Shown here: positions 1-23,373 of the stretch, in pieces
Layout: every line of letters starts with the position of its first letter
Numbering within the stretch: the stretch's first letter is position 1
Source: Candidatus Lindowbacteria bacterium RIFCSPLOWO2_12_FULL_62_27
GTDB taxonomy: Bacteria; Lindowbacteria; 2-12-FULL-62-27
Reading direction: 5' to 3'
Length of the DNA stretch: 43,779 bases
NCBI GenBank assembly: GCA_001784175.1
Contig: MFPR01000031.1
Location: 1-43,779 of the forward strand
Position numbers and translations under genes: made by a program
The notes under the pieces: generated by a model
Seen by the model: only the letters and a program-made list of their open reading frames with translations
Databases searched by the model: none
What the model was told of the DNA's origin: nothing

Positions 1-224
1 GGCAGCGCGCACGTGTGCTTCATCGCGCTCCCCTGCACCGTGTCCCCGTTCAGCGGACACGGATTCGACGTCGTGTCGAACACGATCGCCTTCGAGAAAT
101 TCGCAAACCCCAGCGCGCCGTTCTGAAACCCGGCCACCGTCATGGCGTCGGCGCTCATCGCCCAAACCCCGACGATCGCCACGGCAAACACCGCCGCCGC
201 CCATATGCAACTTGCTGCTTTCAT
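1..224 (-). CDS. 5' part of a secreted protein paralogous to the 296..1483 protein; runs off the left edge and is absent from the ORF track
   Basis: My translation from ATG 224 is MKAASCIWAAAVFAVAIVGVWAMSADA-MTVAGFQNGALGFANFSKAIVFDTTSNPCPLNGDTVQGSAMKHTCAL. It has a signal peptide and an SD GAGGTG within 231-240. It aligns with YTVAGVGKRGFADFSKAIVFTGAACPVNAETIQTSAGAKNCAIP of the neighbouring gene. Confidence 0.85.
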   Translation of the reverse strand, partial: MKAASCIWAAAVFAVAIVGVWAMSADAMTVAGFQNGALGFANFSKAIVFDTTSNPCPLNGDTVQGSAMKHTCAL

Positions 225-295
225 CTGCGTTTCACCTCTTCCTTTTTTCGCCGACCGCTTCTCGCCGTCAGCCTTTCGCTTGAATCCATCTATGT

Positions 296-1483
296 TCATC
301 CGCCCCTCGCCGCCAAAAACACCGTCGTCCAGAACGACCGGAACGGCTGCGGCACGCCGTCCACATACGGCGTGACCTTCACCCGCCCGACCGTCTTCCC
401 GTCCGGGAACACGACGGCGGGATCGAATTGCTCGACGAGGAACAGCACGTCGCTGCGACCGCCCCGCACGAACGTGGCGTTGCCGCCGCTGAAGTTCTGA
501 TTGGTGGTGTCGTTCGTGTTGCCATAAGCGTCCTGCCAGAGCACGGCGTAGACGAACGAATCGCCGATGGCCGTGCCGGCCGGCAGGGACGTATCGGTAA
601 ATGAGATGAGTCCGTCGTACCAGCCGAGCGCGATGTCGTTGCGGTTCGGCGACCAGAACGTGTCGCCGGTGACCTGATTGACGATGGTGTCCTCAAACGC
701 CAGATTCGTGATCGGCGACGCGGCGGAACTTGCGGTCAGTCGCGCCCGCAGAATCTTGAACCCGTACGGCGTGGCCGTCGACGTCGTGTCGAACTCGCGG
801 GCACCCTCCAGGCTCGGCGAAAATCCGTCGCCGCCGTGGCCGTGACGCCAGCGGATCGTGACGACCGTGTCCTGGTTCTGGGTGGTCTGTAGATTGAAGT
901 TATTGTTGTTGTCGAAATTGCCGGTGTCGCCGTCGCCGGTGTTGTCGACGTCGGTGACGCCGCGGTACACCGCGACGTCCGGGTTCGAGATCGTCAGCTC
1001 GGTGTCCCAGGAGGCCCCCTGTTTGGCCATGCCCTGCTTGCCGCGAACGTCCCGGTCGCCGAAAATGTGATAGAAGATGTACCCCTCGGTGATGGCGGAG
1101 GGCACCGTGACGTCCCTGACCGGATCCTGGTTCCGCGACCCTCCGGGCGTCGTGCTCTTCCAGCCATTGGTGTCCTCAAAGGCGGGGATGCGGTACTCGA
1201 AGTAGTAGGTGTAATTGGCGCCGGGGAAAACCGTGGCGGTGCAGACCCACGATCCGTCGCCGACGGGTTTGAGGGGAATGGCGCAATTCTTGGCGCCGGC
1301 GCTCGTCTGGATCGTCTCCGCATTGACCGGACACGCGGCGCCGGTAAAAACGATGGCCTTGGAAAAATCCGCAAACCCGCGCTTGCCAACGCCGGCCACC
1401 GTGTAGGCGTGGGCGGAGCCCGCAATCGCACACAGCCACAAAAACGCCGCAATCCCGATCAGAATCCGGCGCTTCGTGGCCAT
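296..1483 (-). CDS. Secreted protein: CBM20-like N-terminal beta-domain, FN3-like domain and short C-terminal beta module
   Basis: Signal peptide MATKRRILIGIAAFLWLCAIAGSAHA. Start is ATG 1483 or GTG 1489 (GGAG near 1503-1506), not 1597. CBM20-like pattern LKPVGDGSW..TVFPGANYTYYF..RDVTVP; FN3-like pattern VTIRW..GFKILRA..FTDTSL..FVYAV..DAYGN. Confidence 0.8.
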   Translation of the reverse strand: MATKRRILIGIAAFLWLCAIAGSAHAYTVAGVGKRGFADFSKAIVFTGAACPVNAETIQTSAGAKNCAIPLKPVGDGSWVCTATVFPGANYTYYFEYRIPAFEDTNGWKSTTPGGSRNQDPVRDVTVPSAITEGYIFYHIFGDRDVRGKQGMAKQGASWDTELTISNPDVAVYRGVTDVDNTGDGDTGNFDNNNNFNLQTTQNQDTVVTIRWRHGHGGDGFSPSLEGAREFDTTSTATPYGFKILRARLTASSAASPITNLAFEDTIVNQVTGDTFWSPNRNDIALGWYDGLISFTDTSLPAGTAIGDSFVYAVLWQDAYGNTNDTTNQNFSGGNATFVRGGRSDVLFLVEQFDPAVVFPDGKTVGRVKVTPYVDGVPQPFRSFWTTVFLAARGG

Positions 1484-1810
1484 CTTCACGGCGTTGGCCG
1501 TGCTCCTGTCATACACCAAAGGCACGCCACCTGCGTCCAGCGCAGGGACGCAGACGGACGTATTCCTGCCATAGGAAGAAGAACTATAAACCCCCAATAT
1601 ATATCCTTAAGTTCTTTACTGCCCCAATCAATCATGGGCGCAGACCTCTCCCCTGACTTTTCCGCGCAGATGAAACGCACGGAAAAATCTCTTCCGAAGC
1701 AGGACACTCCTGCTCCGCTCAGAACCGAATGGTTCTCAGTTGAATCTCTCTGTTATCCCTCTGTTATCCGAACCTCCGGAATCGAACCGGCATTAATATT
1801 TATTACCAAG

Positions 1811-3313
1811 TTACCAATCGATCACCGTAATCCTGCCCTCATCCCGTAGATTGTTTGCCGACGCCTGAAACAAATAAACGCCGGCGGCCACGGTCTGGCC
1901 CCCGGCGGTTTTTCCGTCCCACTGGACTTCGTTTGTCCCATTGATTGTCCGAAGCAAACGCCCGTCGAGGCTATACAGCCGGACGGTGAACGCGCCCACA
2001 TCCTGCGGCGGCCGGATCGTAACGGACCCGCCCTGGCGTGGGCGGTACGGATTCGGATAGCCGATCACGTCTTTTCCGGCGCTGACTTGAAACGCCGCCA
2101 CGCGCAACGCCGCCGCCGCGTCGACGCACCCTTCGCCGGTCAGTTCATCCTTGCCTGGGGTGTTCAAATCTTTGGCCGTGCTGTACAGCCGGTCCCGGAC
2201 CTCATCCCGCGACAGCCCCGGATTCTCGCTCCACACCAGTCCCGCCACGCCGGCCACGATCGGGGAAGCAAACGACGTACCGCATCCGAAACAGTTGCCG
2301 CCCGCGGGGTCCGGAAAGACAAACGGCTGCACGTTCCCGCCATACGTGTCGCTGTAAATGCCGACGCCCGGCGCTGTGAGGTCCAGGACATCCTTCTCGT
2401 AATTGGAAAAATCGGCTTTTGCGCCGGAGGTCGGATCGATTGCGCCGACGGCGATCACCTGATCGTTGTACCGGGCGGGATACGAAACAGAATTGCGGTA
2501 GTCATTTCCCGAAGCAGCCACGAGGAGAATGCCCTGATCGTAAGCGAATTGGATGGCGTCTTTCACCAGAGAACTGGGTTCGGATGTCCCGAAAAACCCG
2601 ATGCTCATGTTGATGATCCGCACATTGTTCATCGCCGTCCACCGGAGCGCTTCGATCAGATCCCCTGCGACAAAAATACCGTTGTCGTTCAGCACCTTCA
2701 CAGAAACGATCTTGCATGTCCAGCAAACGCCCGCAATCCCGATCCCGTTGTTCGCCTCCGCCGCGATGATCGACGACACGTAGGTCCCGTGCCCATGTTT
2801 GTCTCCGGGATTCGAGTCGCCGGTCACAAACGACACGGCCTCCGCGAGATTTCCGTCCAGATCCTGATGCGTGGTATCGATCCCCGAGTCCAGCACGCCG
2901 ATCCGAACATCGGTCGAGCCGGTGTGATATTCCCACGCATCTGGGAGATTGACATATCTCAAAGGAAGGTCATCTGCGGAAAGCTGGTTCGTAAACTGCG
3001 GGTCGGTCGGCGTCTTGCTGAATGCGCCGCCGATCGTATTGGGCGCGAACCGTGAGTCCGGCGCAATCGCGGTGTCGGTGGCGGGCGCCACCCAGGAAAG
3101 ATTGCTGAGCGGATAATAACGCCGTTCGGTGTAACCGAGTTTTCCCAAGTCCTGCTGCCGGTCCGCCGACGCTTTAACAGACCCCCACACATACAGCCAT
3201 CCATCCTGTGCGGCATGGCAGTCGGGCGTGATACTTGCGCAGACTATAAGGACAAGCACAGACCCGCAGGCACGTATCCTGCTGCGGATCCGGACAGCGG
3301 CTGACAAACCCAT
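1811..3313 (-). CDS. Secreted S8 subtilisin-like serine protease with a T9SS-type-A/FlgD-like C-terminal domain
   Basis: Catalytic motifs VLDSGID, HGHGTYV and GTSFASP, with oxyanion motif AASGN. C-terminus YPNPYRP..VRLYSLDGRLLR..WDGK..G..VAAGVY. Start probably ATG 3313 (GGAGG at 3326-3330). Confidence 0.92.
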   Translation of the reverse strand: MGLSAAVRIRSRIRACGSVLVLIVCASITPDCHAAQDGWLYVWGSVKASADRQQDLGKLGYTERRYYPLSNLSWVAPATDTAIAPDSRFAPNTIGGAFSKTPTDPQFTNQLSADDLPLRYVNLPDAWEYHTGSTDVRIGVLDSGIDTTHQDLDGNLAEAVSFVTGDSNPGDKHGHGTYVSSIIAAEANNGIGIAGVCWTCKIVSVKVLNDNGIFVAGDLIEALRWTAMNNVRIINMSIGFFGTSEPSSLVKDAIQFAYDQGILLVAASGNDYRNSVSYPARYNDQVIAVGAIDPTSGAKADFSNYEKDVLDLTAPGVGIYSDTYGGNVQPFVFPDPAGGNCFGCGTSFASPIVAGVAGLVWSENPGLSRDEVRDRLYSTAKDLNTPGKDELTGEGCVDAAAALRVAAFQVSAGKDVIGYPNPYRPRQGGSVTIRPPQDVGAFTVRLYSLDGRLLRTINGTNEVQWDGKTAGGQTVAAGVYLFQASANNLRDEGRITVIDW

Positions 3314-3424
3314 GGATAAATTGTCCCTCCACAATTTACCCTCTATTTTGCCCCTCGCAATCGCTTCTGCGGTTACTCTTTCTAATACTTTTTGTAATTA
3401 GGTCGAAAAGCTATTCAACCAGTA

Positions 3425-3454
3425 TTTATACCACACGACAGGCCCGCGAAGCAA
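3425..3454 (-). promoter_or_regulatory. Candidate sigma70 promoter for the subtilase gene
   Basis: Minus strand TTGCTT-N18-TATAAA with an extended TGn, in an AT-rich intergenic region. Confidence 0.4.
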
Positions 3455-3639
3455 AAAAAATATGCTTAAACGACCCAAAGCCGTGCAATAAAACATACCC
3501 GTTGATTTCCCGTCCTTTGTGCGTGAGAAACCTCTCCCGTGTATCTGTAACCCTATTGAATGTCAATACGTTTTTTCAAAGCGTTTTCGAAAATGACCCA
3601 ATCACGGAGAACGTGTGAAAAAATTGAATAAACCACTTT

Positions 3640-3740
3640 TTATCCACGAAGGGACACGAAGCTGACACGAAAGCGAATCAAGATATTCAATATGTTATCT
3701 AAATGTTTCTTCGTGCCCCTTCGTGCTCCTTCGTGGATAA
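3640..3740. repeat. Palindromic element of tandem CACGAA / TTCGTG units
   Basis: ttatccacgaagggacacgaagctgacacgaa ... ttcgtgccccttcgtgctccttcgtggataa: three units per arm, just downstream of the 546-aa gene. Confidence 0.8.
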
Positions 3741-3763
3741 GGGATTTATTCACACGTTCGGAC

Positions 3764-5404
3764 CTACGGGCGGGCTTTCTGCTTCCTCTTCTCCCCTTTT
3801 CGCGCCATCTCCGTCTGCCGCTGCCGGCCAGACGGCTCCTGTTCCTGCTTGCGGATCAGAAACATCGCCTCTTTTGCGTTCGTGACTGTCGTCGACGCGA
3901 AATTCTTCCAGTCGCTGGATTTCTGCGACAGGTCGATCGAATAAATCCGGTAATAGTACGTGTCGCCCACGATGATGTTTTGATGGATGTAGGTCGAACT
4001 GTCGGAGTGGACCGTCACCAGCGTGATCCAACTGTTGGTGTCCCCCGGGTTTTCCGAATACTCGATCCGGTACGAATCGATGTCCTCCACCTGCGACACC
4101 TTCGACCACGTGATCAGCACCGTGCTGTTGGTGTTCGGCATCGCCAGAAAATCGGTCGGCGCGTACGGCGTGTCCTCCCAATTGGCCGACACCACCGCCG
4201 TCACCGTCGTCTCCGGCACCACGAGTCGCCGCATCGTGCTGGCGTTTGGCGTCGCGTCGATCCCAATCACCGAATTCGCGCCTTTCATGTAGGGATTGTA
4301 CACGTCCGTTTCCCATGTCCCACCGTTCACTTCGAATCCATACTCATACACCCCCGCGTTCGCTATGTTCACGTCCGCGCGCCAGTAACTGTCCGGATTC
4401 TGTTTCATCGTCGCCGGCGCACCCCAGTCCCAGCTCCCCTTCGCCTTCACCGCCGTCACGCCCGCCCGGGACGGAAAGAGAAACAGGTGCTTGCGCCCGC
4501 CGCTCACTGGAAACTCGAACGTCTTGTTCGCGGCCGTGTCGACCACCACAAACTTGAACGCCAGGTCAAACCCGCGGTTGAGCGCGATCGTGTCGCTCCA
4601 CCAGTGGCTGTCGGCATTCTCCCGGTACAACTGCCGTTCCGACCATCCCCCCCCAGTGTCAAATCCTACATAGACGACGCTGTCGTTCGGCCGGCCCAGG
4701 AAAACCCGGAACTGCACGTTGGTCCGCACACCCGGCCTCACCGTCACCGATTCCCCGGAGGGACCCGGGAGCGGCGAGAGCAGCGGTCCCGTGTCAAAAT
4801 ACGCATCGACTGCGCGGACATGGAAAAAATAGACGGAATCGTTGGTCAGATTCGTGCAGGTGGTGGTCGTGACGGCAATGGTGTCCTTCCGGAACAACAG
4901 CCACGTGTCGAACGCGGGGCCGGTGTCGTAATAGATCCAGTATCCGCCCCCGTACCGCACGTCGTGATTGCGGTCGGACGACCCGGCGGACCACGTCAGC
5001 GTCACCTGCCCGGTGTCCGAATAGGCCGTGAGACCCGTCGGCGCATCCGGCGTGTCGGCCCAGTTCATGTCAACGGTGGTATTGACCGTCGGGATCGTGA
5101 AGGTTCGCCGACCGGTGGCGGTGGCAAAATCGGGCTCGAATTTCGTGTCGCCAAGCTGCAGAAACAGTGCCTTGAAGGTCACCACCGAATTCGGCACCAG
5201 CCACAGGTCAATGTAATTGCGTCCGTTCACGTCCGTGTCCGTCATCGCGTACTCCCGCCAGGCCCCTTGCGTGTCCGTGAAGACCCCGCCCACGCCCCGA
5301 GCGACCGTCCACCACGAGTCGGCCACGTCGGTGTCGCGGGCGTCGGAAGGGCAGGGAAAAGTCAAACCCAGGACGAGGAGCGACAAAACAAGTATTTTAA
5401 TCAC
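3764..5404 (-). CDS. Secreted non-catalytic alpha-glucan-binding-type protein: CBM20-like, FN3, CBM20-like with nested CBM48, FN3, basic tail
   Basis: Signal peptide. FN3 motifs PDAPTGL..VTLTW..NLTN...YFFHVRAVD and PYAPTDF..VLITW..YYYRIYSID. CBM48 motif VKAKGSWDW..M..YEYGFEVNG..W.TD..NP. GTGA overlap with the upstream gene. Confidence 0.85.
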   Translation of the reverse strand: MIKILVLSLLVLGLTFPCPSDARDTDVADSWWTVARGVGGVFTDTQGAWREYAMTDTDVNGRNYIDLWLVPNSVVTFKALFLQLGDTKFEPDFATATGRRTFTIPTVNTTVDMNWADTPDAPTGLTAYSDTGQVTLTWSAGSSDRNHDVRYGGGYWIYYDTGPAFDTWLLFRKDTIAVTTTTCTNLTNDSVYFFHVRAVDAYFDTGPLLSPLPGPSGESVTVRPGVRTNVQFRVFLGRPNDSVVYVGFDTGGGWSERQLYRENADSHWWSDTIALNRGFDLAFKFVVVDTAANKTFEFPVSGGRKHLFLFPSRAGVTAVKAKGSWDWGAPATMKQNPDSYWRADVNIANAGVYEYGFEVNGGTWETDVYNPYMKGANSVIGIDATPNASTMRRLVVPETTVTAVVSANWEDTPYAPTDFLAMPNTNSTVLITWSKVSQVEDIDSYRIEYSENPGDTNSWITLVTVHSDSSTYIHQNIIVGDTYYYRIYSIDLSQKSSDWKNFASTTVTNAKEAMFLIRKQEQEPSGRQRQTEMARKGEKRKQKARP

Positions 5405-6483
5405 AAATCAACTCTCCGGATCACGCCCATCACCCGGCGCGCGAAAATCGGGTCGGGCGCGTCCTCCCGCGTCATGTACACGACCTGTCCGTGAGACTGG
5501 ACGTAGTTCCAATCGAAATGGTGGACCTTGAACCGGACCCGCACCGGCGCGCGGGGCACGGCCGTGTCCTGCGGCGTGGTGTCGGACATCAGGCGCAGGA
5601 AGGGTGAATCGTTGACCGTGCCGGACGTCAGGCCCTTGTAGGCGTCGACCGCGACCAGGACGTAGTAGTACGTCGTATTGGCCGACAATCCCGCGTCCGT
5701 GTAATTGGTCGCGGATCCATCGACCTCCTTGACCAGCGTGTAAGAGGTCGTGCTGCCCGTTGTGTTGCGATAGACGCGGAAGAGTCCCCCCGCGATCACG
5801 TCCGCCGCCTTGAAACTCTCGCCGCCCGTGCCCCAGCTCCCGTACGGCGCGCCCCACGTCAGCCGGACGGTGGTCGTGTCGACCGCCATGGCGTCGAAAT
5901 TGGTGATGGTGATGGGCCGCTCGCCGAAATTGGCGTAGACATAGAACGTATCGCCGGGATCCAAATCCTGCGGCACCGTGATGAGCCGCCGGGCGTCGTT
6001 GCTCGTCCCGACCGTCCCGTATCGAACGGCCGGCGCCGACGTCGAATCGACCTTGAGCGGCTGGGTCCCGCTCTGAATGGCGCCGCCGGTGGGAATCACG
6101 TCATAGTACGTCGTGTTCGGCTGCAATCCCGCCGGCGCGCTGGGACCGGTCTTGGCAAAGAAAAGGAAATTGTAGGTCGCCTTCGGCGTCAGTTGGATGA
6201 TCGCCTGGTACGTGCCGTCGCCGACCGCCGTCATGGTCTGAAGGCCGTTGGTGATGGACGCGCGGCTGACGTCCGACCAGACGGAGGTCTGCGTGCCCGG
6301 GTGGACGGCGATGTACCGCGGGACCTGGGCCCAGGTGTCGGAGGCGTAGGTATCGGCCGCTTGCGCGGGGCTGAGAGAAGACAGGATACAGAATACGGAA
6401 TACAGAAGTGAGAAAAAAAAGCATGGAACCTTCTGTCTTCTGTCTCCTGTCTTCTGTCTTCTCTCAATTCCTGAAATCGACAT
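5401..6483 (-). CDS. Secreted protein: CBM20-like domain, FN3 and short C-terminal beta module
   Basis: Hydrophobic segment ending AQA. CBM20-like pattern MTAVGDGTYQAIIQLTP..YNFLF..RRLITVP; FN3 pattern VRLTW..FRVYRN..YTDAGL..YYYVLVAVD. Overlaps the giant gene by 20 nt. Confidence 0.85.
   Translation of the reverse strand: MSISGIERRQKTGDRRQKVPCFFFSLLYSVFCILSSLSPAQAADTYASDTWAQVPRYIAVHPGTQTSVWSDVSRASITNGLQTMTAVGDGTYQAIIQLTPKATYNFLFFAKTGPSAPAGLQPNTTYYDVIPTGGAIQSGTQPLKVDSTSAPAVRYGTVGTSNDARRLITVPQDLDPGDTFYVYANFGERPITITNFDAMAVDTTTVRLTWGAPYGSWGTGGESFKAADVIAGGLFRVYRNTTGSTTSYTLVKEVDGSATNYTDAGLSANTTYYYVLVAVDAYKGLTSGTVNDSPFLRLMSDTTPQDTAVPRAPVRVRFKVHHFDWNYVQSHGQVVYMTREDAPDPIFARRVMGVIRRVDL
6373..6465. repeat. 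Imperfect 36-bp inverted repeat built from heptamer units
   Basis: 6373-6408 gagagaagacaggatacagaatacggaatacagaag pairs with 6430-6465 cttctgtcttctgtctcctgtcttctgtcttctctc. Confidence 0.85.
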
Positions 6484-9400
6484 ACACGTATCCTCCCGGG
6501 GTGACGTTGACGACGTTGGAGTTGGGGCTTTCGAGCACCAGGGCGCCGGTATCGACGGAGCGGACGGCGAAGGAATAGCTGGTGCCGTTGGTGAGGCCGG
6601 TCACATGGTAGTTGGTGTTGGCCAGGATCGCCGAATTGACTTTGGTGAACGCGCCGGACGTTTGGAGCTGATAGACGTTGTATCCGATCAGGTCCTGGTC
6701 CTTGGTGTTGGCGTCCCAGAACAGCCACGCGGCGCCCGAGTCAGGCTCGCTCTTCAGGTTCGACACCACGTCCGGGTCTTCCTGCCAGTCGTCGAAAAAT
6801 GTTTTCGAGGCCACGGAGGGCACGGTGACTTCCCGGTTCCGGGACGACGTCGTGAAGTCCTTCTCCTGCGTGTCCGCCGCGAAATAGCGGTACTGCAGGT
6901 TGAATCCGGTCAGCATGTCGGTCGTGTAGGTCCAGGTGTACAGTCCGGAATCAAGCATGGCTTTTCCGCTCCATGTGATATAGGCGTCGTTCGAGAGGAT
7001 CTTCACATTCCCGAACGTAGTGATGGTCCCGACATCCACGGTAAATGTCAACCGGGCGAGCTTGGCCGACAGGACCGTTGAGCTGTCCGACTCGTTCTGG
7101 AAATCGTCCACGGCCGACACGGCGTAATAGTACTGCGTGTTGGTCTGCGCCGTGCTGTCGTTCCAGAAGGGCGAAAAGGACGGGCTGATGAGGGACGCGT
7201 TCAGTTTTTTGTCGGAGGTGAGATTGAAGTTCGGCGTGGCGCTGCGGTAGACGTTATAACCGGCAAGGTCGGCCTCGGTGCTGTAGTCCCATTTGACGAC
7301 GACGCTGTTCAGCCCGCCATTTTCGCCGATGACGCCGGCCGGTTTGGCGGGCGCCGTGTCGTCCGTGTTGGTCGTCGGACGGGCCGATACCGAATCGGTG
7401 GGCAGGGAACTGAAATTCTTGTTGATGTCCACAGCCTTCATCTTGTAATAATACAGCGTTCCGTTGGTCAGGCCGCCGTCGGTGTACGAGATGACGTCCT
7501 TGCCCACGCCGGTCAGTGAGGTGAACGTGACGCCGTCGGTGCTTCGGTGGATTTCATAGTGGCTGATGTCGGCCTCCAAATTGAACGACCATCCCAGCCG
7601 GATGGCGCCGTCGCGGGGGACGGCCGACAGGCCCTGCGGGGCTTGGGGCGCCTGGTCGCCCACGACGTTGAACCGGTTGACCACGGCGAACGTGTGGTCC
7701 GGCGTGTTGGGAACCAGGAATTGCCGGCACGGCTCATAGGTATAGGAATTCCAGTGCGCGCCCGGACCGGCCGCGTTGTAATCGACAAAACAGTCTCCGT
7801 CGTTTTGCGCTCCCGCCAGGGAAGTGGGATTGCATCCGCCCGAGTTGATTTCAGCAATGAAGATGTAATTACAGCTCAACGTCGGATCGAGGTTCACCGC
7901 CGCCTCATAGATGCCGCGGCCTTTCAAGGTCATCTGCACCGGCAAGAAGCCGGCGTCGTAGCGGATGGCCGAATTGTTGTTGAAATCGAATTTGCCCAGG
8001 ACGGCCGGATTTCCCGCCACGTACATTTTGGTGATGCTGCTCGTGTTGATGCCTCCCGGCGCGCTCGTCACATCCGTCTGGAACGTGACCTTGACGGTGC
8101 CCGGCGTCGCCATCGCCTCGTTGGAAAACCCGCTGAGGTTGCCGTTGCGGTCGAGCGCCTTGATTTTGTAATAGTAGGTATCGCCGTTGACGAGCTTGTA
8201 GTCGAAATCGTTGTCGAAAAACGTCGACCGGATGACTTCGATGTAGAGCGGGGGACTTGCGTCGTTCTGGGTTTTGGAACGATAGATGTAATACGATTCG
8301 ACCGTGTCCGAGGATGGATTGTCGGGCCATTCCAGTTCCACCGCGCGGTCGCGCGCGACCGCCATGAGTCCGGACGGCGGCTGGGGCGGCGTGTTGTCGA
8401 CGTAGCCGGCGGGGTCGGTCGCAAGATCGATGGTGGAGACGACGTCGACGCCGTCCGTGAAATTCCAGAGCGCCCGGTACTCGTAGGGCGCTTTCCAGAT
8501 GTTCATCCGGCGCTGGGTGGTGCCGCCGGAAGAGGTCACGATGTCGACGATCCAGTCGGTGGTGCCGGAATTTTTGCTTTCCCGGGTCCAGACGGCCTTG
8601 TCATCGATGGAGACGACCGCGTCGTTCTGGTTCACGCCGTTGATCTGGACCGTGATCTGCGCGCGGGTTTTGCCGAAACTGTTGACCTTGAGATAGGCCG
8701 CCGTGCTGTTTCCGACGCTGAACGCGCTGCTCAGATTTCCGGAACCGTCGGTCGTCGCGGTGCCGCCGGAGAACCAGTCCTTGTAGGTTTTGTTGGCCTG
8801 CAGCGCCCCAATGGCGATCCCACCCGACCCGAAGGTGCGGGCGCCGGACTGACTGGCGTTCATCAGCACCAGAACTTCCTCGGTGGTCGTCCGGCCCCGG
8901 ATGAAGGCCATGGCCTTGCCGTTCTCACTGTACGACCAGTATTGATCCTTCTGATCATATCGGAACGCCGGAAAAATCTGCCGGGCACGCTGGGCCGAGG
9001 CGGCGCTGGCCTGGATGTCGCCCACCGAACCGTCATGAACGATCTGCCCGACCACGCTGCCTTCGTGATTCCAGGGAAACCGGCGGGTCGTGCCGAAAGC
9101 TGATAATTCGCCGGTCGACTGCCAGTCGGGGTAGGTCAGACCTCGTTTGCCCATCATCACCAGTTCGTCGCCGTAGAAAATATAGGGCACACCCGGCATA
9201 CTGCCCTCCCAATACATGATCATCAGCAAGGCGCCGATCGATTTCGACCAGGTGTGCCCTTCGCCCGTGTAATGGTAGGCCCGGTCGTGGTCATGGTTTT
9301 CATAATAGATCGTCATCACCGGCGTGCCGTTCGCGTTCAGCGTGCCGTAATCACTCTCCCATCGGCTCTTGAGGTCGTCACTGGTGTTGCCGCTGCCGGT

Positions 9401-12400
9401 CCATTCAGCCGTCGCCCACCCTTTGAGCCGTTCATCAAACCCGCCCATATGGATCATCCCGATCAGGCGGTTGCCGTCGCCGCAGTAGGCGCTTTGGACA
9501 TCAGCTCCGGACGGAGCCTCGCCGAAACTGTAGAGATCCGGCGCGTAGTCCTTCAATTTGTTGCCCCAGTACGCGTAGAAGGGAAGCCCGCGTTCGGGAG
9601 GAGACGCGTCCGCCGTAAATTTCGCGTTGTCGACCCGGAGGAAATCCATGCCCAACGCGTACAGGAACCGGGCATGATCGGAAAAATACTGGCGGGATTC
9701 CGCGACACCCGGCAGTATGGCGTCGCCGAACATCGGGAAGGTCGTTCCATCGGCCTTGAGGTAATTTCCAGAATTTTGAGTCACGAGAAACGTACTGGAC
9801 CCGCCGGAATGGGGCGTGATCCAGTCCTGGCCGCATCCAAGATTGTGGCGTTTGGCCTCCTTGATCGTGCGCACGTATTCGTCAAAGCCCTTGTAGGTGC
9901 CCCACGTGGTGGGGTTGGCGTAGGACCAGTCGACCGCGTACTGATTTTTCGGGTCGTATCCCCAGCCGGTGTTGCTTCCGAAATCGAGCGCGGGGCTGAA
10001 ATTGATGTGGGTAATGCCGAACCAGTTGAAATAGCCGTCCTTGATGTAGTCGATCAATCCCTGCAGGTCGCCGTTGATGTCGTACTTGCTGGTGCTGGAA
10101 GCGCCGGTTCGCTGGTTGTCCTTCCGGCCGTCCCACCAGCGGCTGATCCAGAGGTTGTAAATCTGGATGTCCCGCATTTTCCCGAAATGGGTGGTGCGGC
10201 TCGGGTTCAAGGGCGCGGCGCCGAACGCCGCGGTGTCGAGTTTAACGCCGGAAAGGCGGGTGGAGGAATCGACGCCGACCGCGAGCCACGCGTCGACCGA
10301 CTGGTCCTGGACGTCATTCCAAGTGGACAGGCGATGGGTGACGACGTCGACGAAGTTGGCGTTGTTGGCGCCGAACTGGCCGATGCCGCCGTTGTCGTTC
10401 CAGAACACGGTCGGCGTGATGCGGACGGTGTCCGACGTGTACTCGGCGGCGCCGCCGATGAGGCTCAGGGGCACGCAGATTTCGACGAAGCTGTCCTGGG
10501 CGTTTTCGGTGTAGCGGCCTTCGCCGACGATGGTGAAGTTCTCGTTGTAGATCGTGACGTCGTCGTTGCCGGTCCGGGCGCTGATCAGATATTCCCAGGG
10601 CACGGACGAATTCACGAACCCGTCCTCGGCGTAGATGTTCCTTCCGAGAAAGGCCCGTTCGCTGGACAGCGACCCGATATCGAGCGCCACCTGAATGTAC
10701 GGCGTGCCGTCTTCCCAGCGGAAAAATTTCATGAAGAGATACAGATTATAGGGATCCATCGCGAACCGGACCTGGTCGAGGTCGAGGTACGGTTCCTTGG
10801 ACGCGTTGTCGTTCCGGTGATCGCTCTGACTGTCGCGCCAGGCGGCTTCGTACTTGGTCAGGATGTACGTCTCGCGGCTGTTGGACAGGCCGAGATTCGG
10901 CGCCCAGTCGCTCGAATCGCCGTTGACGTTTCGCATGCTGTAGTAGATCCCGTCGCTCGGCGGGCTGTTGGGACTCCAGTTCTGTGTCGCTGCGGTGTCG
11001 CCCGCGCGGATGCGGGCGTAGTAGGTCCTCCCGCGAACGAGCACGGCGCCGGAATCCGACCGGATCGTGTAGTTCGTGGTGCACCCGGCGGCCGCAGTGC
11101 CGATGAGGGTATCGACGAGGACGACTTCGACGAAATTCGAATCGTGCGAGATTTCGATCGCGTAATTCTGGATGACCCACGTGTTGGAATGCGTGGCCGG
11201 CGCCCACTGCCAGTAGATGGCCGAATCCGCCGATTCCTTGTCCTGATACCGGTTCATGTTGTTCTTGTTGTTGATGTCCTGCGGACGGTTGACGGTGATG
11301 GTCGGTTTGGTCGTCCGGAAATTCCAGAGCACCGTGTCGGACAGCGTGCCGGTCCGGTCGCGGGCGCGGACGCGCCAGTAATAGATGGTGTTGGTCGGCA
11401 TGTCGGCCGGGATCGTGTAGCTGGTGTCGTTGCCGGAGACGTTCACGCGGTACCGGATGACGCCGTCCAGGTTCGTGTCGGTGCCGAGCTCGACCAGATA
11501 GGAGGTGACGGTGTCGTCCGCATCGGAATCGGTCGTCCGGGTCCAGCGAAGCGTGGGCGCGAGCACGTCCGTGGTGTCACCGCTCCTGGGGAACGGGCCG
11601 GTGCAGGTATTGGGTTTGAGGTTGGCCAGGAGGCCCGCAGAGGTGTAACGAAGCTGAACCCAGAAATCGATGTCGCCGTCCGACAGGTCCTCCTGGTCGG
11701 CCGAGATCGACCGGGCGGCGTCGTTGGTGAACGAGGCGGTCCCGTCGCGGGCGGGAATCGAGACGGCATCGAGCGCGTCGTAGGCGCCGAATTCAACGGT
11801 CGAGTTGATGGCCGACGCCTTTCCGACGCGGTTCTTGAACGACGCGATGGCGATCTGGATCGTATCGGACCCGACAAGCCCAATGGCCGATCGCGAAACT
11901 TTGCCTTCGATCACGTAGGCCGCCGTGTCCATCTCGATGCCGGCGGTCGTGTCCGTCCACCCGGCGGCGGTTTGAATCTCCAGAATCGCGCTGTCCGACA
12001 CGTGGGTATGCACCACAAGCTGGACTTCCGCCGCGAGGGCCGGGGCGACGTAGCTGTCCCCGAAGGAGGTCTGGCTCTCATCCCCGATCGTGGCGTTCCC
12101 GGACCCGGACGCGCCGTCGGTATCGATGGCGATGGCGATGTTCGGATAGTTGGCGACGGTGAGTTTCCGCAGGGACACGCGGAAATAGAGGTTCTCGGTA
12201 TCCATTTTCAGCCGGCACTCCTTGAAGTCGAAATGGTCCGAGTGGGTGACGACCGCGCGCTCCTCGTTCGACTTGTCCAGCCATATCCATTCGCTGTCGG
12301 TCACGCGGGCGGTGTTGATCTCGGCGGGCGCGGTCCCGGTCCAATCCGTGAACGCGCCGAGATTGACCGCGTTGCTCTGCGTCACGGCCGACGTCTCCCG

Positions 12401-15400
12401 CCCGTCCCCCACGCTCACCCGACAGTACCAGACGTCCCCCTGTGCCGTGCTGTCGGCGCTGAGGGTATCGGTATAGGGCGGAACGCTGTCGACGAAAACG
12501 AGCCCGGCGACCGCGCTGTGATTCTGGTACCATTCGAACTGATAGAAAATCGTGTCGCCGTCCGCATCGACGGAACCGGTGCAGGACGCATTGAGGCTCG
12601 AGCTGTTCAGAGGCGTCAGGGGCGTGAGCGTCACCGAATCGAGGGCGGTCGGGACGGCGTTGATCACCGAGAAGACGAAGGCGCTGTCCTGCGCCGCCGT
12701 CTTGGACAGGGTGACGGTGGAACTCGCGTTGTCGCCGTACACGTAATTGTTCTGGGCCTCGCTGATCTGAATGTAATACCGCACGCTGTCCCCCTTGGCG
12801 AACGACGCGGGAATGACGCCTTCGAAAAATTCGTCCGCGCCGTTCGTGTAGGCCGAGGCCATCGCGACGCTGTCCGACGTCGCCCAGGTATCCTTGGAAT
12901 AGACGACAAACAGGTTATTGAAATTCCCTATGGGCGAGGCGCCCGCGGTGATGGTGATGGACTGGGATTTGACGGGCGTCACCGGGCTTCGCATCGTCTC
13001 CTTGCCTGCGACCGGCTGGTCCGCCGGACGGTGGTAGACGTTGGAATTGCTGGTGGACTGGATGACGTACCGTTTGGCGAGCGTGGCGTCGATGCGCGCG
13101 AAGGTGTCGCTCCAGGTGCTGACGGCGTTGCCCTGAAAGGGCGTAATGTCGGAGATGCCCGGTTTGGGGCTGGCGTGCCGGGCGATGTGAACGATCCCGA
13201 CCGTATCGCCGGCTTTGAGGCCGAGGGTGGTCAGGGAAACCTTCAGCTCGCCCCAGCGGTTGGATTCCGAAACCTTGAAATCCGTCCCGCCGGTCATGCC
13301 GGTGGAGGTCCAGTCCGTGTCCCTGCTTTTGTAGAGCGTCATGCCCCCGTAATCCTGGGCCTGGTATCCCATCCATGCGTTGGCCCAGAAATCGGCGCTG
13401 TATTTGTAGACCCGCGTGGCCGGCGAGACCCCCGTTTTCCACGGATCGCCGGATGTGCCCGCCGGGTTGGTGTCGGTGAAGAAAATAAACTCGTAGTGTC
13501 CCGGCTCCGACACGCCGTTTTCCTTGTCGTAGTGCCGGCCCATCGCCTCCCAGCCGAGGTAGAGGTTGCTGATGTCGTTGGTGATGTAGAGTCCGCGGGC
13601 GAGACCGGTGTCGTCAAAGGTGAAGTCGTCCTCGCCGACGTCGGGGACGACGCCGTTGGGCCGCTGGGCGCCGAGGCCGGTCGTATCGGCGGTCGATCCC
13701 CACCCCGGATCCTTGGCGCCGTCGATGAACGGCGTGAAGGCCTTGACCTTCGTTTCGCCGGCGTCCCGGAACGCAGCGGAGCTTCGGAGATAGCCTGCCG
13801 CATTCGGGGTGGTTGGCGCGGGTGTCAGCGAATCGTAATAGATGTAGGACGTGAACGAGACCGGAGCGCTGTCGACGGCGTTGGAATTGGGGGCGGAGGC
13901 TTGGACGTTGCCGTTGTCGCCCTGGTTGGTGTAGAGAAGAAATTTAGCCTGTGTGATCGGCGCTTCCGGCGTGTCGCCGAGGTCTTTCCAGGGGATGCTG
14001 ATTTCGGCGAGTCCGCCGCCGTTGTTTTTGGACACGGCGCCGTTCCAAGTCTGGCCGCCCACCCAGGCCGAATCGGAGGCGCGCCACTTGCGAAGGTCGG
14101 TGTAATCCGCGCCGCCGCCGTTGTTGGGGGCGTAGAGGAACACATAGTCGGGCCGCATGCCCGAGGGAAGATTGTGGACACCGCTCCAGCTTACCGTGGT
14201 TTCAGCGCCGAAATTGGTCACGTGACCGGTGTCGATATAAATCTGGATCACGTCGTTGGCGGCGGTGGTCGGAAAGGCGCTGCCGCGGCTGACGGCCGCA
14301 AAGAGGAACGTCGGGTCCCACCAGAGCCGGTAATCGCGAACGCCGTACGCCGGCAGGATGGTGGTGTCGGGCCAGTCGGCCAGGCCGGCGTCGATGTTGA
14401 CGAGGGTCTTGAAGAGGGAATTGGGAACGAATGTGTCGGAGGCGTCCAGGAACTGGTAGAAATACGTCAGATCGGCCTCCGATCCGCCGCCGGGGTTGGC
14501 GGCCGGATACGACGTCCAGATGTTGGATTCGGATTCATACTGCTGGAACGCGACGATGTTGAACGTGTCCGGGCGTTTTTTGTTGTTGGTGAGATACATC
14601 CAGGGAATCCGGACTTCGGTGTATGGGACGCCGGCCGTACCGATGACACGTCCCCACCCTGCCGATGTATCGATATCGTTTCTGTTGAGCATCAGGCGCC
14701 AGCTTGAGTTGTTCAGCACCTGCTGGAACTCGATGCCCGGTGTGCTGGCGGAATCCTCGATGCAGAACGAGGCATCCCACTTGGCGCCGGTGTCGGTCGG
14801 GAGGTTATGGATGCCGCCGCCACCCCAGTCGATGCTCGTGTTGATGCCGCTTTCGGGCATGATGTCCATGTAGACGAAGAAATCTCCGCTGTTGGAGGTG
14901 TTGATGTCCTTCGGCTGATAGGCAAGGTACAGGCAGGTGTCATCCCAAGCGAGCATGAACCAGATATTCTCGTTCGAGTCCACCTGCATCTTCTCGTCGC
15001 CCTGCCAGTCGGAGACGCTGCCGTTGATGGTGATCGGCTCGTAGTAGATGTGGATATAGCGGGTCACCGACCAGCCGGCCTGGTCGTAGAGCCGGACAGC
15101 GACGGCGTTGACGTTGACGGTGTCGAGCGCGGCAAAGGCCGGGCCGGACAAAAACCAGTCCCCGACGCGGCTGTCGGCGTCGGTGGTGAAAACATCATAC
15201 CATGCGCCGCCGACCTGAACCTGGGCGGTGTCGAGCAGGGACACGGAGTCGCCGTTATAAAAATCGATCTTGATCGCCGGCGCGCGCGTGAAGGTGTCGG
15301 CCTTGAAGACGTAGGTGTCGTCCCGGACGATCATGGTTGGCACGGTGTCGTCGACCCGGAAGGTCTGGGAATACCGGATCGTCGTGGTGTCAAATGTGCC

Positions 15401-22383: not shown

Positions 22384-23373
22384 ATGAAACGGATGGCGAT
22401 CTGGCTGTGTTTGATCGGCCTTGCAGTCCAGGGCTGCGGGAAGGCGGCGGAGGTGCACAAGGTCAAAATCGGATTTATTCTGGCGACCGAGCAGGAAGAG
22501 CGGTACCAGAGGGACAAGCACAGTTTCCTGGAGACGGCGGCGAGGATGGGCGCCGAGGTTTTGTTTTTGAGCTGCGACAATGACGAGAACAAGCAGGCGC
22601 TCAATGTCGAGACGCTGATCTCCCGCGGCGTGAAGGTTCTCGTCATCCAGCCGGTCAACAGCGACAACGCGGCGGTGTTTGTCGACAAGGCGCATGAGAA
22701 AGGCATCGTGGTGATCGCCTACGACCGGATGATCAACCACCCGGCCCTGGACTTCTACGCGGGCCAGGACTCGTTCGAGGTCGGCCGCGTGCAGGTCAAG
22801 GCCGCGCTGGAGTGGCTGAAGCAAAAGGGACTGAAGGGCAGGGCCATCCTTTGCAGCGGCCAGCAGGGCCACAGCGTGGCGGAGGCGATCACGAAGGCCA
22901 ACCGGGAGGAACTGCAGAAAGCCGGTGTGGCGGTGGCCGTTCAGCAGTACCACGACGCGTGGGGGACGGAGCAGGCGCTGAGCACGGTCGAAAACGCGCT
23001 GGTGACGTATCCCGACGCGCGCATCGTTCTCTGCAACAACAGCGGCATGGCGCGCGGCGCAGTCCAGGCGGTGGAGAAGGCCGGCAAGTCCGGGCAGATT
23101 TTCATCAGCGGGGCGGACGCGGACAAGGCCAACGTCGAGTACATCCTCGAAGGCAAACAGCAGCAGGACGTGTACAAGGACGAAATCTCTCTCGCGCGCG
23201 GCGCGGCGGACCTCGCGGCGAAAGTCGCGGCAGGGCAGGCGCCGCCGAATCTTGCGGCCACCGACTACAAGGACGCCAAAGGCGTCAAAACCATTCTCAC
23301 GCCGGTGCAGGCGATCGACGCATCGAACTACAAGGCGGTCGTCGTCGACGCAGGGCCGAAATATCAGATGTAA
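22384..23373 (+). CDS. Monosaccharide ABC transporter substrate-binding lipoprotein (XylF/ChvE-like)
   Basis: Lipobox LAVQGC; ERYQRD, VIAYDRMI, ISGADAD and DVYKD motifs. Confidence 0.88.
   Translation: MKRMAIWLCLIGLAVQGCGKAAEVHKVKIGFILATEQEERYQRDKHSFLETAARMGAEVLFLSCDNDENKQALNVETLISRGVKVLVIQPVNSDNAAVFVDKAHEKGIVVIAYDRMINHPALDFYAGQDSFEVGRVQVKAALEWLKQKGLKGRAILCSGQQGHSVAEAITKANREELQKAGVAVAVQQYHDAWGTEQALSTVENALVTYPDARIVLCNNSGMARGAVQAVEKAGKSGQIFISGADADKANVEYILEGKQQQDVYKDEISLARGAADLAAKVAAGQAPPNLAATDYKDAKGVKTILTPVQAIDASNYKAVVVDAGPKYQM

What the first reader, a model, noticed from the sequence alone, without database searches (positions are those of the whole stretch)
1..8110. Candidate strand-complementation 'amylo-filament': subunits start with a CBM20-like domain lacking strand A and end with an orphan strand A
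Seen: inside the giant enzyme, each complete CBM20-like domain follows an FN3 and opens with a V.F.V strand (TPGTVKVTFQTDV..MYVAGN; AKLARLTFTVDV). The giant then stops right after its last FN3 with only TPGGYVYVDFRN. The downstream secreted proteins begin at the second strand or later (433 aa: YTVAG; edge ORF: MTVAG; 546 aa: WWTVARG; 360 aa: RYIAV). The three complete ones keep the rest of the fold (..G.G.(Y/W)...L.P...Y.(F/Y)...R...VP) and, after their last FN3, end with a strand-A-like motif (VRVRFKV, DVLFLVE, EAMFLIR). The giant, 360-aa and 546-aa genes overlap each other. Known: donor-strand complementation builds chaperone-usher and Bacteroidia type V pili, and FN3 termini lie at opposite ends, which makes intramolecular completion awkward. 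Inference: the subunits chain head-to-tail into a cohesin/dockerin-free amylosome or glucan-binding filament displaying the giant GH13.
Basis: partly seen in the sequence, partly recalled or inferred. Interest (0 to 1): 0.88.

Follow-up and report, generated by a model that had tools for sequence, protein, structure and literature searches.

The report
Strand-linked surface tether for giant amylase
A giant starch-cutting enzyme and the small secreted proteins encoded after it each seem to lend a beta-strand to the incomplete first domain of the next protein, which would join them into a chain anchored to the outer membrane, a way of building surface enzyme complexes that I did not find described.

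Summary
The giant GH13 protein ends in an orphan strand (YVYVDFRN). Every downstream secreted protein starts, right after its signal peptide, one strand short of a CBM20-like sandwich. Each also carries a strand-A-like segment after its last FN3.

The decisive evidence is fused relatives:
- In 8 related loci the giant carries the 360-aa-type module fused to it, so the orphan strand and the 360-aa protein's mature N-terminus are one continuous sequence.
- 14 of 14 fused modules have the strand; 24 of 24 stand-alone ones lack it.
- A 9114-aa protein of the same genome shows the same for the 433-aa type (4 of 4 fused modules).

The operon order is conserved across several phyla:
1. a donor-only giant;
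2. 1-7 adaptors;
3. an acceptor-only protein with a T9SS-type tail;
4. a PorV/PorQ-family barrel.

Structure prediction gave little: weak support for tail-to-N-domain binding (0.45; best control 0.00) and mediocre monomer models.

- Two families carry about 45 conserved residues after the donor strand.
- The assembly is more likely a finite anchored tether than an open filament.

Earlier notes of this scan proposed similar strand-linked, T9SS-anchored modules on other DNA (Elusimicrobia, Zixibacteria). I did not test those.

The parts
6464..19027 (-). Giant secreted GH13 protein (4187 aa), the proposed distal, donor-only subunit. It has a signal peptide, two LTD domains, an alpha-amylase catalytic region (aa 3146-3295, nt 9143-9592), FN3 repeats and two complete CBM20-like domains. 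It has no T9SS-type tail.
   Evidence: Pfam. Orthologues P0052 and P0060.
6467..6490 (-). Orphan terminal strand YVYVDFRN, placed directly after the giant's last FN3. It is the proposed donor strand for the p360 N-domain.
   Evidence: coordinates. It is conserved at the very C-terminus in 3 of 3 orthologues and in L001-L003. In fused giants the equivalent strand (QVFVHFG and similar) runs straight on into a p360-type N-domain.
7031..7063 (-). Strand A (KLARLTFTVDV) of the giant's last complete CBM20-like domain. It serves as the reference for what the downstream N-domains lack. A second example, GTVKVTFQTDV, lies at 8069-8101.
   Evidence: Weak Pfam CBM_20 match at aa 4030-4074. This domain is the first row of the complete-domain profile used.
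5401..6483 (-). p360 adaptor (360 aa). Signal peptide aa 1-42; strand-A-less N-domain aa 43-~190 (nt 5914-6357); FN3 aa ~193-300 (nt 5584-5907); C-terminal donor region aa 314-360 (nt 5404-5544), made of VRVRFKV plus 40 conserved residues.
   Evidence: Profile comparison with the p433 family: Prob 98.2%. AF2 model with pLDDT 71.
3764..5404 (-). p546 adaptor (546 aa). Signal peptide; strand-A-less CBM20-like N-domain (aa 23-~112, nt 5069-5338); FN3; a complete CBM20-like domain opening with TNVQFRVFL (nt 4697-4723); a further sandwich domain; FN3; donor strand AMFLIRK (nt 3848-3868); and a basic tail.
   Evidence: hhalign of the N-domain family against complete domains: Prob 97.7%, with the first 23 template columns unmatched. 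Relatives end VDVYFKVEK* and IAVYFKVEN....
1811..3334 (-). S8 (subtilisin-type) peptidase with a T9SS type-A sorting tail. It sits inside the adaptor run only in this genome, so it is probably an accessory.
   Evidence: Pfam Peptidase_S8, E 3e-56. TIGR04183 24.4 bits, cut-off 23. No S8-sized extra gene sits between the adaptors in the gene maps of L001-L019, but those ORFs were not all scanned against Pfam.
296..1483 (-). p433 adaptor; the likely start is M39. Signal peptide; strand-A-less N-domain starting YTVAG (nt 1028-1405); an FN3-like domain with insertions; C-terminal donor region DVLFLVE plus 44 residues (nt 299-451).
   Evidence: Fused paralogue. Complex prediction.
3..224 (-). N-terminal part of a second p433-type adaptor (signal peptide, then MTVAG...), cut by the contig end. 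Its C-terminal part is probably the fragment at the end of contig C21 of the same genome.
   Evidence: Near-identical full-length relative P0015.
19149..20249 (-). Context: a secreted protein with three CBM48/CBM20 modules just upstream of the giant. GH66, two GH13, GlgB and GH77 genes lie further upstream. The locus is devoted to alpha-glucans.

Best explanation
The operon encodes one long surface protein broken into separately secreted pieces. The pieces are held together by beta-strand (donor-strand) complementation in trans.

Each piece after the giant begins with a CBM20-like sandwich that lacks its first strand. Each piece before the last one carries that strand after its final FN3.

The proposed chain, from the cell outwards:
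1. A PorV/PorQ-family outer-membrane barrel.
2. A 902-aa base protein (on contig C21), held by its T9SS-type C-terminal domain, with a free acceptor N-domain.
3. Five p433-type adaptors.
4. p546.
5. p360.
6. The 4187-aa GH13 giant, attached only through its last eight residues.

All C-termini point to the cell and all N-termini point outwards. The result would be a starch-binding stalk that displays the amylase, without cohesins or dockerins.

Shown:
- the missing and extra strands;
- their conservation;
- their continuity in fused homologues;
- the conserved gene order.

Inferred:
- that the strand inserts into the next subunit;
- that gene order equals chain order;
- the role of the anchor;
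- export to the surface.
For: 1. Fusion evidence for giant->p360. In 8 of 19 related loci (L008, L009, L012, L013, L015-L018) the giant carries one or two p360-type modules fused to its end.
- The junction reads FN3-QVFVHFG-VPYSAGLSSSPWGDSTRLKMYLAV... This equals the window giant's tail plus p360's mature N-terminus.
- 14 of 14 fused modules have the strand 8-12 residues before the conserved W.
- 24 of 24 stand-alone ones have a signal peptide there instead.

2. Fusion evidence for p433->p433. A 9114-aa ORF on contig C6 of the same genome holds four tandem p433 modules.
- Each is preceded by ITVIFKD or ITALFTV.
- The last module, which is followed by a different domain, has no such strand after it.
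- FN3-to-FN3 junctions in the giant lack it too. The strand therefore belongs to the following N-domain, not to the FN3.

3. The p546-type N-domain profile aligns to complete internal CBM20-like domains with Prob 97.7% and E 1.9e-12. The alignment starts at template column 24 of 107, after strand A. Those complete domains pass Pfam CBM_20 (40.5 and 24 bits, cut-off 23.3).

4. Conservation.
- The donor region is the best conserved part of the p433 family (invariant F323, V325, E326, G341, T346, P347, G351 in 24 sequences).
- It is also conserved in the p360 family.
- Every giant whose C-terminus is visible (17 loci; none in L004 or L019) ends at such a strand or up to about 40 residues after it.

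5. Bookkeeping in this operon plus C21: 8 donors and 8 acceptors.
- The only donor-only protein is the first gene.
- The only acceptor-only protein is the last gene.
- Neither could be completed in cis.

6. The order giant, adaptors, acceptor-only base, barrel recurs in L002, L011-L014, L016 and L019. L018 shows the base, but its contig ends before any barrel.
- The barrel next to the C21 base scores 159 bits on NF033709 (PorV/PorQ family, cut-off 90).
- The bases' last ~100 residues match the C-terminal part of the PorZ model in 5 of the 7 tested (six bases, including p915, plus P0040), with E from 1e-12 to 1.4e-3.
- P0040 and P0042 combine a p433-type acceptor with a T9SS-type tail and no donor.

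7. Both other giants examined in this genome end in T9SS-type tails. The window's giant has none.

8. Weak: complex prediction of the p433 N-domain with its C-terminal region.
- Score 0.45; best of 3 controls 0.00.
- In the tool's calibration the pass mark was reached by 58 of 80 solved complexes and 2 of 110 mismatched pairs.
- A passing score of 0.60 or under, as here, was seen in only 7 of those 80 solved complexes and in both passing mismatches.
- The runs agree in at least 39% of contacts; the partner's pLDDT is at least 46.
Against: 1. No model shows the strand in the groove. The complex tool gave no interface, the partner's own fold was uncertain, and the pass is of the kind the tool calls 'more often wrong than right unless the guess was likely beforehand'.
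2. The AF2 monomers were poor or mediocre (pLDDT 54 and 71), and I could not inspect coordinates.
3. p360- and p433-type donors carry 40-44 extra conserved residues. By eye these look like a shortened copy of the next N-domain segments (W-segment and strand B). A plain one-strand insertion does not explain them.
4. Adaptors hold both a donor and an acceptor, so cis closure is not excluded for them.
5. In 4 of 13 loci where the downstream region is visible (L005, L006, L007, L010), a giant and one adaptor are followed by unrelated genes with no base. In L004 the adaptors have no giant within 10 kb upstream.
6. Only the base has a T9SS-type tail, so export of the other pieces across the outer membrane is unexplained. 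A canonical T9SS core was not demonstrated in this genome:
   - SprA model: only 69.9 bits over positions 350-706.
   - No full-length PorU.
   - GldM: nothing found.
7. Direct profile similarity of the p360 and p433 N-domains to CBM20/48 is weak (Prob 0.1-73%).
Confidence: 0.6

Rival explanations
1. Cis completion (circular permutation). Each adaptor folds its own C-terminal strand back into its own N-domain and forms a closed, monomeric starch-binding protein. The giant's tail and the base's open domain would be leftovers, or would pair only with each other.
For: Every adaptor has exactly one donor and one acceptor.

The linkers would allow a fold-back. In p360 about 12 residues separate the FN3 from the strand. 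In p433 about 45 residues separate the N-domain from the FN3-like domain (sequences).

The complex test used cut domains, so it cannot tell cis from trans.
Against: The donor-only giant and the acceptor-only bases (p915, P0040, P0042 and the bases of L002, L011-L014, L016, L018, L019) cannot be completed in cis.

The giant's tail is conserved to the last residue in 3 of 3 orthologues. In fused homologues it is strand A of the very domain that p360 starts with.

In p433 the FN3-to-strand linker is as short (about 4 residues) as in the fused protein, where the strand feeds the next module.

In the AF2 p360 monomer the strand (mature residues 272-278) is unpaired coil. That model is mediocre, so this counts for little.
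Confidence: 0.1
2. No complementation. The N-domains tolerate the loss of an edge strand and fold alone. The C-terminal segment would be a small separate domain or a sorting or retention tag, an alternative to the T9SS-type tail. The operon would simply encode several independent secreted glucan-binding proteins.
For: In p360 and p433 the C-terminal region is about 50 residues long, more than a single strand.

It is mutually exclusive with the T9SS-type tail: P0040 and P0042 versus the other family members.

The tails are often basic.

The structure predictions gave no clear groove or docking.
Against: In fused homologues the same strand is internal and directly precedes the N-domain, so it is a domain element and not a terminal tag.

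The giant and the p546-type proteins carry the strand with little or nothing after it (YVYVDFRN*, VDVYFKVEK*).

An HMM of the p433 C-terminal region finds only the five p433 paralogues among 57030 six-frame ORFs of the genome, so it is not a general tag.

Gene boundaries fall after the strand in every case examined, never before it.
Confidence: 0.2
3. Assembly or annotation artefact. The 'split' genes would be one gene broken by sequencing errors, and the signal peptides would be spurious.
For: The genes overlap or abut (20 nt and 4 nt). The window is a whole short contig of a metagenome-assembled genome.
Against: The same split, with a hydrophobic signal-peptide-like start after each stop, recurs in 19 independent loci from several phyla and in 14-24 database homologues per family.

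No continuation of the reading frame exists after p546 or after the giant in any frame.
Confidence: 0.02

Closest known systems
Type V pili of Bacteroidia (FimA/Mfa1 of Porphyromonas gingivalis)
   Same: Subunits polymerise without a chaperone-usher pair. A C-terminal strand or strands fill a groove left by a missing N-terminal strand of a neighbouring subunit. Separate tip, stalk and anchor subunits are encoded in one operon. The lineages involved carry T9SS-type machinery. The mechanism is as I recall it. I saw only the listings and abstract openings of PMC5954841, PMC8512630, PMC4789730 and PMC13655056.
   Different: - The groove here is exposed by signal-peptide cleavage, not by removal of a strand from a lipoprotein precursor by an Arg-protease.
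- No lipobox is visible by eye.
- There is no FimA/Mfa Pfam match.
- The acceptor is a CBM20-like module.
- The tip is a 4187-aa enzyme.
- The base carries a T9SS-type tail next to a PorV/PorQ-family barrel, not a lipid anchor.
Chaperone-usher pili (type 1, P, Csu)
   Same: Donor-strand complementation between Ig-like subunits. Gene clusters encode tip, adaptor, rod and terminator subunits.
   Different: Those pilins lack the last (G) strand and donate an N-terminal extension; here the first strand is missing and the donor is C-terminal. No chaperone or usher family was hit in the operon proteins scanned.
Chaperone-free donor-strand fibres: archaeal threads, cannulae, Tafi, TasA
   Same: Self-assembly by strand donation without dedicated assembly machinery. 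I saw only the listings and abstract openings of 10.1101/2022.04.26.489512, 10.1101/2024.12.30.630787 and PMC11821415.
   Different: Those are homopolymeric structural fibres. Here the subunits are heterogeneous multidomain glycan-binding proteins, and the cargo is an enzyme.
PorZ-PorQ and PorU-PorV pairs of the T9SS attachment complex
   Same: The base protein's last ~100 residues match the C-terminal part of the PorZ model. Its neighbouring gene is a PorV/PorQ-family barrel (159 bits, cut-off 90) whose best equivalog is PorQ. I did not read the papers.
   Different: The base protein is not PorZ (19.8 bits against a cut-off of 260). It carries CBM20/CBM48/FN3 modules and an open N-domain. The genome holds about 20 such barrels and at least 32 such tails, so the pairing is used as a general anchoring device.
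Cellulosomes and the Ruminococcus bromii amylosome
   Same: Non-covalent assembly of glycoside hydrolases and binding modules on a cell-anchored scaffold.
   Different: Those use cohesin-dockerin pairs. None was hit here, and the join would be a split domain.

Membership tests
CBM20 (Pfam PF00686) for the N-terminal domains | Score above the Pfam gathering cut-off (23.3 bits) over the domain | tested here: not met
   The N-domains of p360, p546 and p433 give no CBM_20 hit. p546's only CBM_20 match (17.4 bits) lies in its internal domain, aa 252-297.
CBM20 (Pfam PF00686) for the N-terminal domains | Profile-level homology to bona fide CBM20 domains, covering all strands | tested here: inconclusive
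   - The p546-type N-domain aligns to complete internal CBM20-like domains with Prob 97.7% and E 1.9e-12, but only from template column 24 of 107, so strand A has no counterpart.
- Those internal domains pass Pfam CBM_20 in p915 and L011.
- p360-N against p546-N: Prob 94%.
- p433-N is linked only through p360 (98.2% over the full length) and through CBM48 (73%).
- p360-N directly against CBM48 or against the complete domains: Prob 0.1-9%.
Type V pilins (FimA/Mfa1) | FimA/Mfa-type fold or family match | tested here: not met
   No such Pfam family at E<=1 for p360, p546 or p433. Foldseek on the p360 model returned only generic tandem FN3 arrays.
Type V pilins (FimA/Mfa1) | Lipoprotein precursor whose N-terminal strand is removed by a protease | tested here: not met
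   By eye, the signal peptides end in A-x-A-type sites with no lipobox cysteine at the cleavage site. No predictor was run. The strand is absent from the gene itself.
Type V pilins (FimA/Mfa1) | C-terminal strand donated to the neighbouring subunit's groove | tested here: inconclusive
   Supported by fused homologues and by a weak complex score (0.45; best control 0.00). No structure.
Chaperone-usher pili | Periplasmic chaperone and outer-membrane usher genes in the cluster | tested here: not met
   None among the Pfam hits of the operon and flanking proteins scanned.
T9SS cargo (type A sorting domain, TIGR04183) | C-terminal sorting domain at or above the cut-off (23 bits) | tested here: inconclusive
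   - The S8 peptidase passes (24.4 bits).
- Bases score below the cut-off: L013 21.3 and L002 19.7.
- p915 has no TIGR04183 hit, but it matches the C-terminal part of the PorZ model (E 2e-4) and Pfam FlgD_ig (20.2 bits, cut-off 27).
- The giant, p360, p546 and p433 have no such domain.
PorV/PorQ family (NF033709) for the gene after the base protein | Score above the curated cut-off (90 bits) | tested here: met
   159.1 bits for C21 15801-16655. L011's neighbour passes Pfam PorV (27.5, cut-off 27) and PorP_SprF. L016's neighbour gives only sub-threshold hits.
Cellulosome/amylosome | Cohesin and dockerin modules | tested here: not met
   No cohesin or dockerin family among the Pfam hits of the proteins scanned.
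GH13 alpha-amylase family (giant) | Pfam Alpha-amylase above the cut-off (22 bits) | tested here: met
   43.4 bits, aa 3146-3295. Only part of the catalytic domain matched, and the catalytic residues were not checked.

The most novel reading that the evidence does not exclude
A single T9SS-type tail with its dedicated PorQ-like barrel exports and holds a whole train of separately translated proteins. The proteins snap together in the periplasm by split-domain strand complementation, so secretion is by piggyback. On this view, giant surface proteins of several candidate phyla have repeatedly been broken into modules at one precise point, just after strand A of a CBM-like domain. That would make a natural plug-and-socket system for building surface enzyme stalks of variable length.
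Probability: 0.3. Interest if true: 0.9.

Novelty: new variant of a known kind. Interest (0 to 1): 0.8.

Why it matters
If true, this is a new use of donor-strand complementation. It would tether a giant glycoside hydrolase and a stalk of starch-binding modules to the cell, and not build an adhesive pilus. The acceptor would be a carbohydrate-binding-module fold and the anchor a T9SS-type device.

It would give a third principle for surface multi-enzyme complexes, beside cohesin-dockerin cellulosomes and Sus-type utilisomes.

It would explain how giant enzymes without any sorting tail stay on cells of Lindowbacteria, Hydrogenedentota, Elusimicrobia, Ignavibacteria and Brevinema-like spirochaetes.

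It would raise the testable question of whether T9SS-type systems can carry passengers that lack a sorting domain.

The short donor strands and small acceptor domains could also serve as natural protein-joining tags.

Tried and rejected
- **AF2 of mature p433** with 19 sequences: pLDDT 54, pTM 0.38. Not usable.
- **AF2 of mature p360** with 15 sequences: pLDDT 71, pTM 0.56. Only the secondary structure was usable, because coordinates are not visible.
- **Foldseek of that model against PDB**: only generic tandem FN3 arrays with rmsd above 13 A.
- **ESM Atlas for p360**: feature hits to a CBM20 cluster (0.91, 152 shared features), to Glucodextran_B (0.91) and to SusE/SusF (0.86-0.87). These are leads only. 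The structural rows had TM below 0.5.
- **hhalign of the fused p360-type N-domain against CBM48 repeats of this genome**: Prob 9%.
- **Is the p433 C-terminal region a genome-wide sorting tag?** No. The HMM finds only the five paralogues.
- **Is p546's short tail a frameshifted longer domain?** No continuation in any frame.
- **Exhaustive HMMER search with the p433 profile**: only 14 cluster representatives, so no deeper alignment could be built.
- **T9SS core genes in this genome**:
  - SprA_N (Pfam): nothing found, but the controls were silent too, so this is uninformative.
  - SprA (TIGR04189): one partial sub-threshold match.
  - PorU model: only tail matches.
  - GldM: nothing found, and the controls were silent.
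- **Earlier notes of this scan searched by sequence with p360**: nothing.
- **S8 peptidase as a conserved maturation protease**: rejected as a conserved part. No comparable gene sits between the adaptors in the gene maps of the 19 loci. This was judged from ORF maps, not from a family scan.

Full report
**What is in the window**

The window is a whole contig (C31) of a 4.39-Mb, 44-contig genome, 94% complete by the tool's estimate. Its closest related locus, L001, comes from a record with that name.

On the minus strand lie, in order:
- a 4187-aa secreted giant with LTD, alpha-amylase and FN3 domains;
- p360;
- p546;
- an S8 peptidase with a T9SS-type tail;
- p433;
- the start of another p433-type gene, cut by the contig end.

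Upstream are a triple CBM48/20 protein, GH66, two GH13 genes, GlgB and GH77. The locus therefore deals with alpha-glucans.

One correction is needed. p360 and p433 do not end at the strand-A-like motif: they carry 40 and 44 further residues. p546 carries a 27-residue basic tail. Only the giant stops at the strand.

**Families and conservation**

The p433 family is small. The word-indexed search found 19 proteins, and the exhaustive search of 1.84 billion cluster representatives found 14 representatives.

In the 24-sequence alignment, every member has a signal peptide that ends one or two residues before the first conserved residues of the fold. The C-terminal ~50 residues are the best conserved part of the protein.

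The p360 family (14 sequences) shows the same pattern. Profile comparison shows that the two families are collinear homologues: N-domain to N-domain, FN3 to FN3, C-terminal region to C-terminal region (Prob 98.2%, E 4e-14).

The giant's two orthologues in the protein database (60% and 51% identical over the last 408 residues) end in YVDVDFRN and VVWVHFRN. These are the same length, to the residue, as YVYVDFRN.

**Is the N-domain really a sandwich minus its first strand?**

For the p546 type, yes, at the profile level. Eight such N-domains align to five complete internal CBM20-like domains with Prob 97.7% (E 1.9e-12). The alignment begins only at template column 24 of 107, so strand A and its loop have no counterpart. 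The complete domains pass Pfam CBM_20 in two proteins.

The p360 N-domain matches the p546 type (Prob 94%). The p433 type is linked through p360, and weakly to CBM48 (Prob 73%).

Direct comparisons of the p360 type with CBM48 or with the complete domains fail. For those two families, 'CBM20-like' therefore rests on a chain of profile matches.

**The decisive evidence: fused relatives**

1. In the same genome, a 9114-aa ORF on contig C6 holds four tandem p433 modules (57-61% identical to p433).
   - Each N-domain there is directly preceded by ITVIFKD (or ITALFTV after an FN3).
   - This aligns with p433's C-terminal DVLFLVE.
   - The last module, which is followed by a different domain, has no such strand.

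2. A scan of species-representative genomes found 19 loci with p360 relatives, from Lindowbacteria, Hydrogenedentota, Elusimicrobia, a spirochaete/Brevinema lineage, Ignavibacteria and unclassified bacteria.
   - In 8 of them the upstream giant has one or two p360-type modules fused to its end.
   - The junction reads FN3, then QVFVHFG, then about 10 residues, then PWGDS..K.YLAV.
   - This is the window giant's tail and p360's mature N-terminus as one chain.
   - 14 of 14 fused modules have the strand. 24 of 24 stand-alone proteins have a signal-peptide-like hydrophobic start (judged by eye) in its place.

Gene boundaries thus always fall just after this strand, never before it. FN3-to-FN3 junctions lack the strand. 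It is therefore an element of the following domain, left on the preceding polypeptide.

**Operon logic**

The contig end is very probably joined to the end of contig C21. That contig carries the missing C-terminal part of the edge gene and then, in order:
- three more p433 paralogues;
- a 902-aa protein with a strand-A-less p546-type N-domain, CBM20 and CBM48 modules and a T9SS-type C-terminal domain, but no donor;
- a PorV/PorQ-family barrel (159 bits, cut-off 90);
- a protein made of CBM48 repeats.

Counting both contigs gives eight donors and eight acceptors. The only donor-only protein is the first gene, and the only acceptor-only protein is the last.

The order giant, 1-3 adaptors, acceptor-only protein with a T9SS-type tail, PorV-like barrel recurs in L002, L011, L012, L013, L014, L016 and L019. 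L018 shows the base but ends before any barrel could be seen. That makes 9 of the 13 places, counting the window with C21, where the downstream region can be seen.

Two database proteins (P0040, P0042) combine a p433-type acceptor with a T9SS-type tail and lack the donor region.

The two other giants of this genome that I examined end in T9SS-type tails, and one of them is followed by a PorV-like barrel. The genome holds at least 32 such tails and about 20 PorV/PorQ-family genes.

The window's operon therefore reads as a giant tail-anchored surface protein that has been cut into separately secreted pieces.

**Mechanism proposed**

Each piece is exported by Sec. Its N-terminal sandwich is one strand short. 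The strand after the last FN3 of the preceding gene product fills that place. This gives a chain with all C-termini toward the cell.

The base is held by its C-terminal domain on the dedicated PorQ-like barrel. This is by analogy with PorZ-PorQ, which I recall and did not read. The giant amylase sits at the far end.

The extra ~45 residues of the p360- and p433-type donors may act as a clamp that replaces the lost covalent link. By eye they resemble a shortened copy of the segments that follow strand A, but I could not test this.

**What speaks against it, or remains open**

- Structure prediction did not deliver. The cut-domain complex test gave weak support only:
  - Score 0.45 (runs 0.45, 0.34, 0.46); best of 3 controls 0.00.
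  - Partner pLDDT 46-49; at least 39% of contacts shared between runs; no interface reported.
  - In the tool's calibration, passes at 0.60 or under came from 7 of 80 solved complexes and from both of the mismatched pairs that passed.
- Cis closure of the adaptors is not excluded. The only hint against it is the unpaired strand in a mediocre p360 monomer model.
- Four loci have a giant and one adaptor but no base nearby. One locus has adaptors without a giant within 10 kb.
- How pieces without a sorting tail cross the outer membrane is unknown. A canonical T9SS core was not demonstrated in this genome.
- Whether p433 paralogues polymerise or occupy fixed positions is also unknown.

**Comparison with what is known**

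The logic is that of donor-strand complementation. It is closest to type V pili, which also use a C-terminal donor and a missing N-terminal strand and have tip, stalk and anchor genes. None of that family's defining sequence features is met, and chaperone-usher components are absent.

Full-text searches found no paper that combines strand complementation with carbohydrate-binding modules and glycoside hydrolases (0 hits). The only link found between donor strands and type IX secretion was type V pili (8 papers, listings only).

Earlier notes of this scan describe conceptually similar strand-linked, T9SS-anchored modules in an Elusimicrobia genome and a Zixibacteria genome. They are unchecked, involve other proteins (no sequence look-alike), and I did not test them.

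**Verdict**

- Confidence in trans strand complementation is about 0.6.
- I class it as a new variant of a known kind (donor-strand assembly) in a new role.

Noticed in passing
G000 contig C6, 121122-146060 and 153699-181040 (L021 holds the start of the second): Two giant ORFs of 8313 and 9114 aa (stop-to-stop) end in T9SS-type tails. The second holds four tandem p433-type modules. The first is followed by a PorV/PorQ-family gene (C6 146150-146989).
   Followed up: partly
whole genome G000: At least 32 ORFs carry a T9SS-type C-terminal domain, several in open frames of 5,000-22,000 aa. There are about 20 PorV/PorQ-family genes. Only a partial sub-threshold SprA match was found and no full-length PorU. 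The genome may use tail-plus-barrel anchoring on a large scale with a non-canonical secretion core.
   Followed up: partly
window 39553-40398 and 40515-43769 (minus strand): Another pair of this kind inside the window: a PorV/PorQ-family gene (189 bits) next to a 1084-aa protein with sub-threshold T9SS-tail matches.
   Followed up: no
L002 18543-19796: The PorV-like protein after the base subunit carries a CBM48-like module at its C-terminus (...VTITGPFNNWDL...GRYFYKLKVDD...).
   Followed up: no
L001 1629-3635; L002 9082-9807; L003 6681-7046: In three loci, unrelated genes sit between the giant's stop and the p360 gene: a 668-aa membrane-like protein, two small paralogous ORFs of 112-125 aa, and a 121-aa helical protein. 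The junction seems to tolerate or attract insertions.
   Followed up: no
window ~6425-6470 (minus strand), at the giant stop and p360 start: A purine-rich near-repeat (GAGAGAAGACAGAAGACAGGAGACAGAAGACAGAAGG) encodes p360's N-terminal RRQKTGDRRQK segment and overlaps the giant's stop.
   Followed up: no
window 23364-25316 and 27060-28343 (minus strand); 28364-29530: Two ORFs of 650 and 427 aa have no Pfam match. Beside them is an AAA_14/DUF4143 ATPase gene, in the middle of the alpha-glucan locus.
   Followed up: no
L020 1196-3787 (C21 13195-15786, minus strand): An 864-aa protein with six CBM48/AMPK1_CBM repeats separated by long Pro/Ala-rich linkers, encoded right after the PorV/PorQ-family gene. 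It may be a further glucan-binding surface component.
   Followed up: partly
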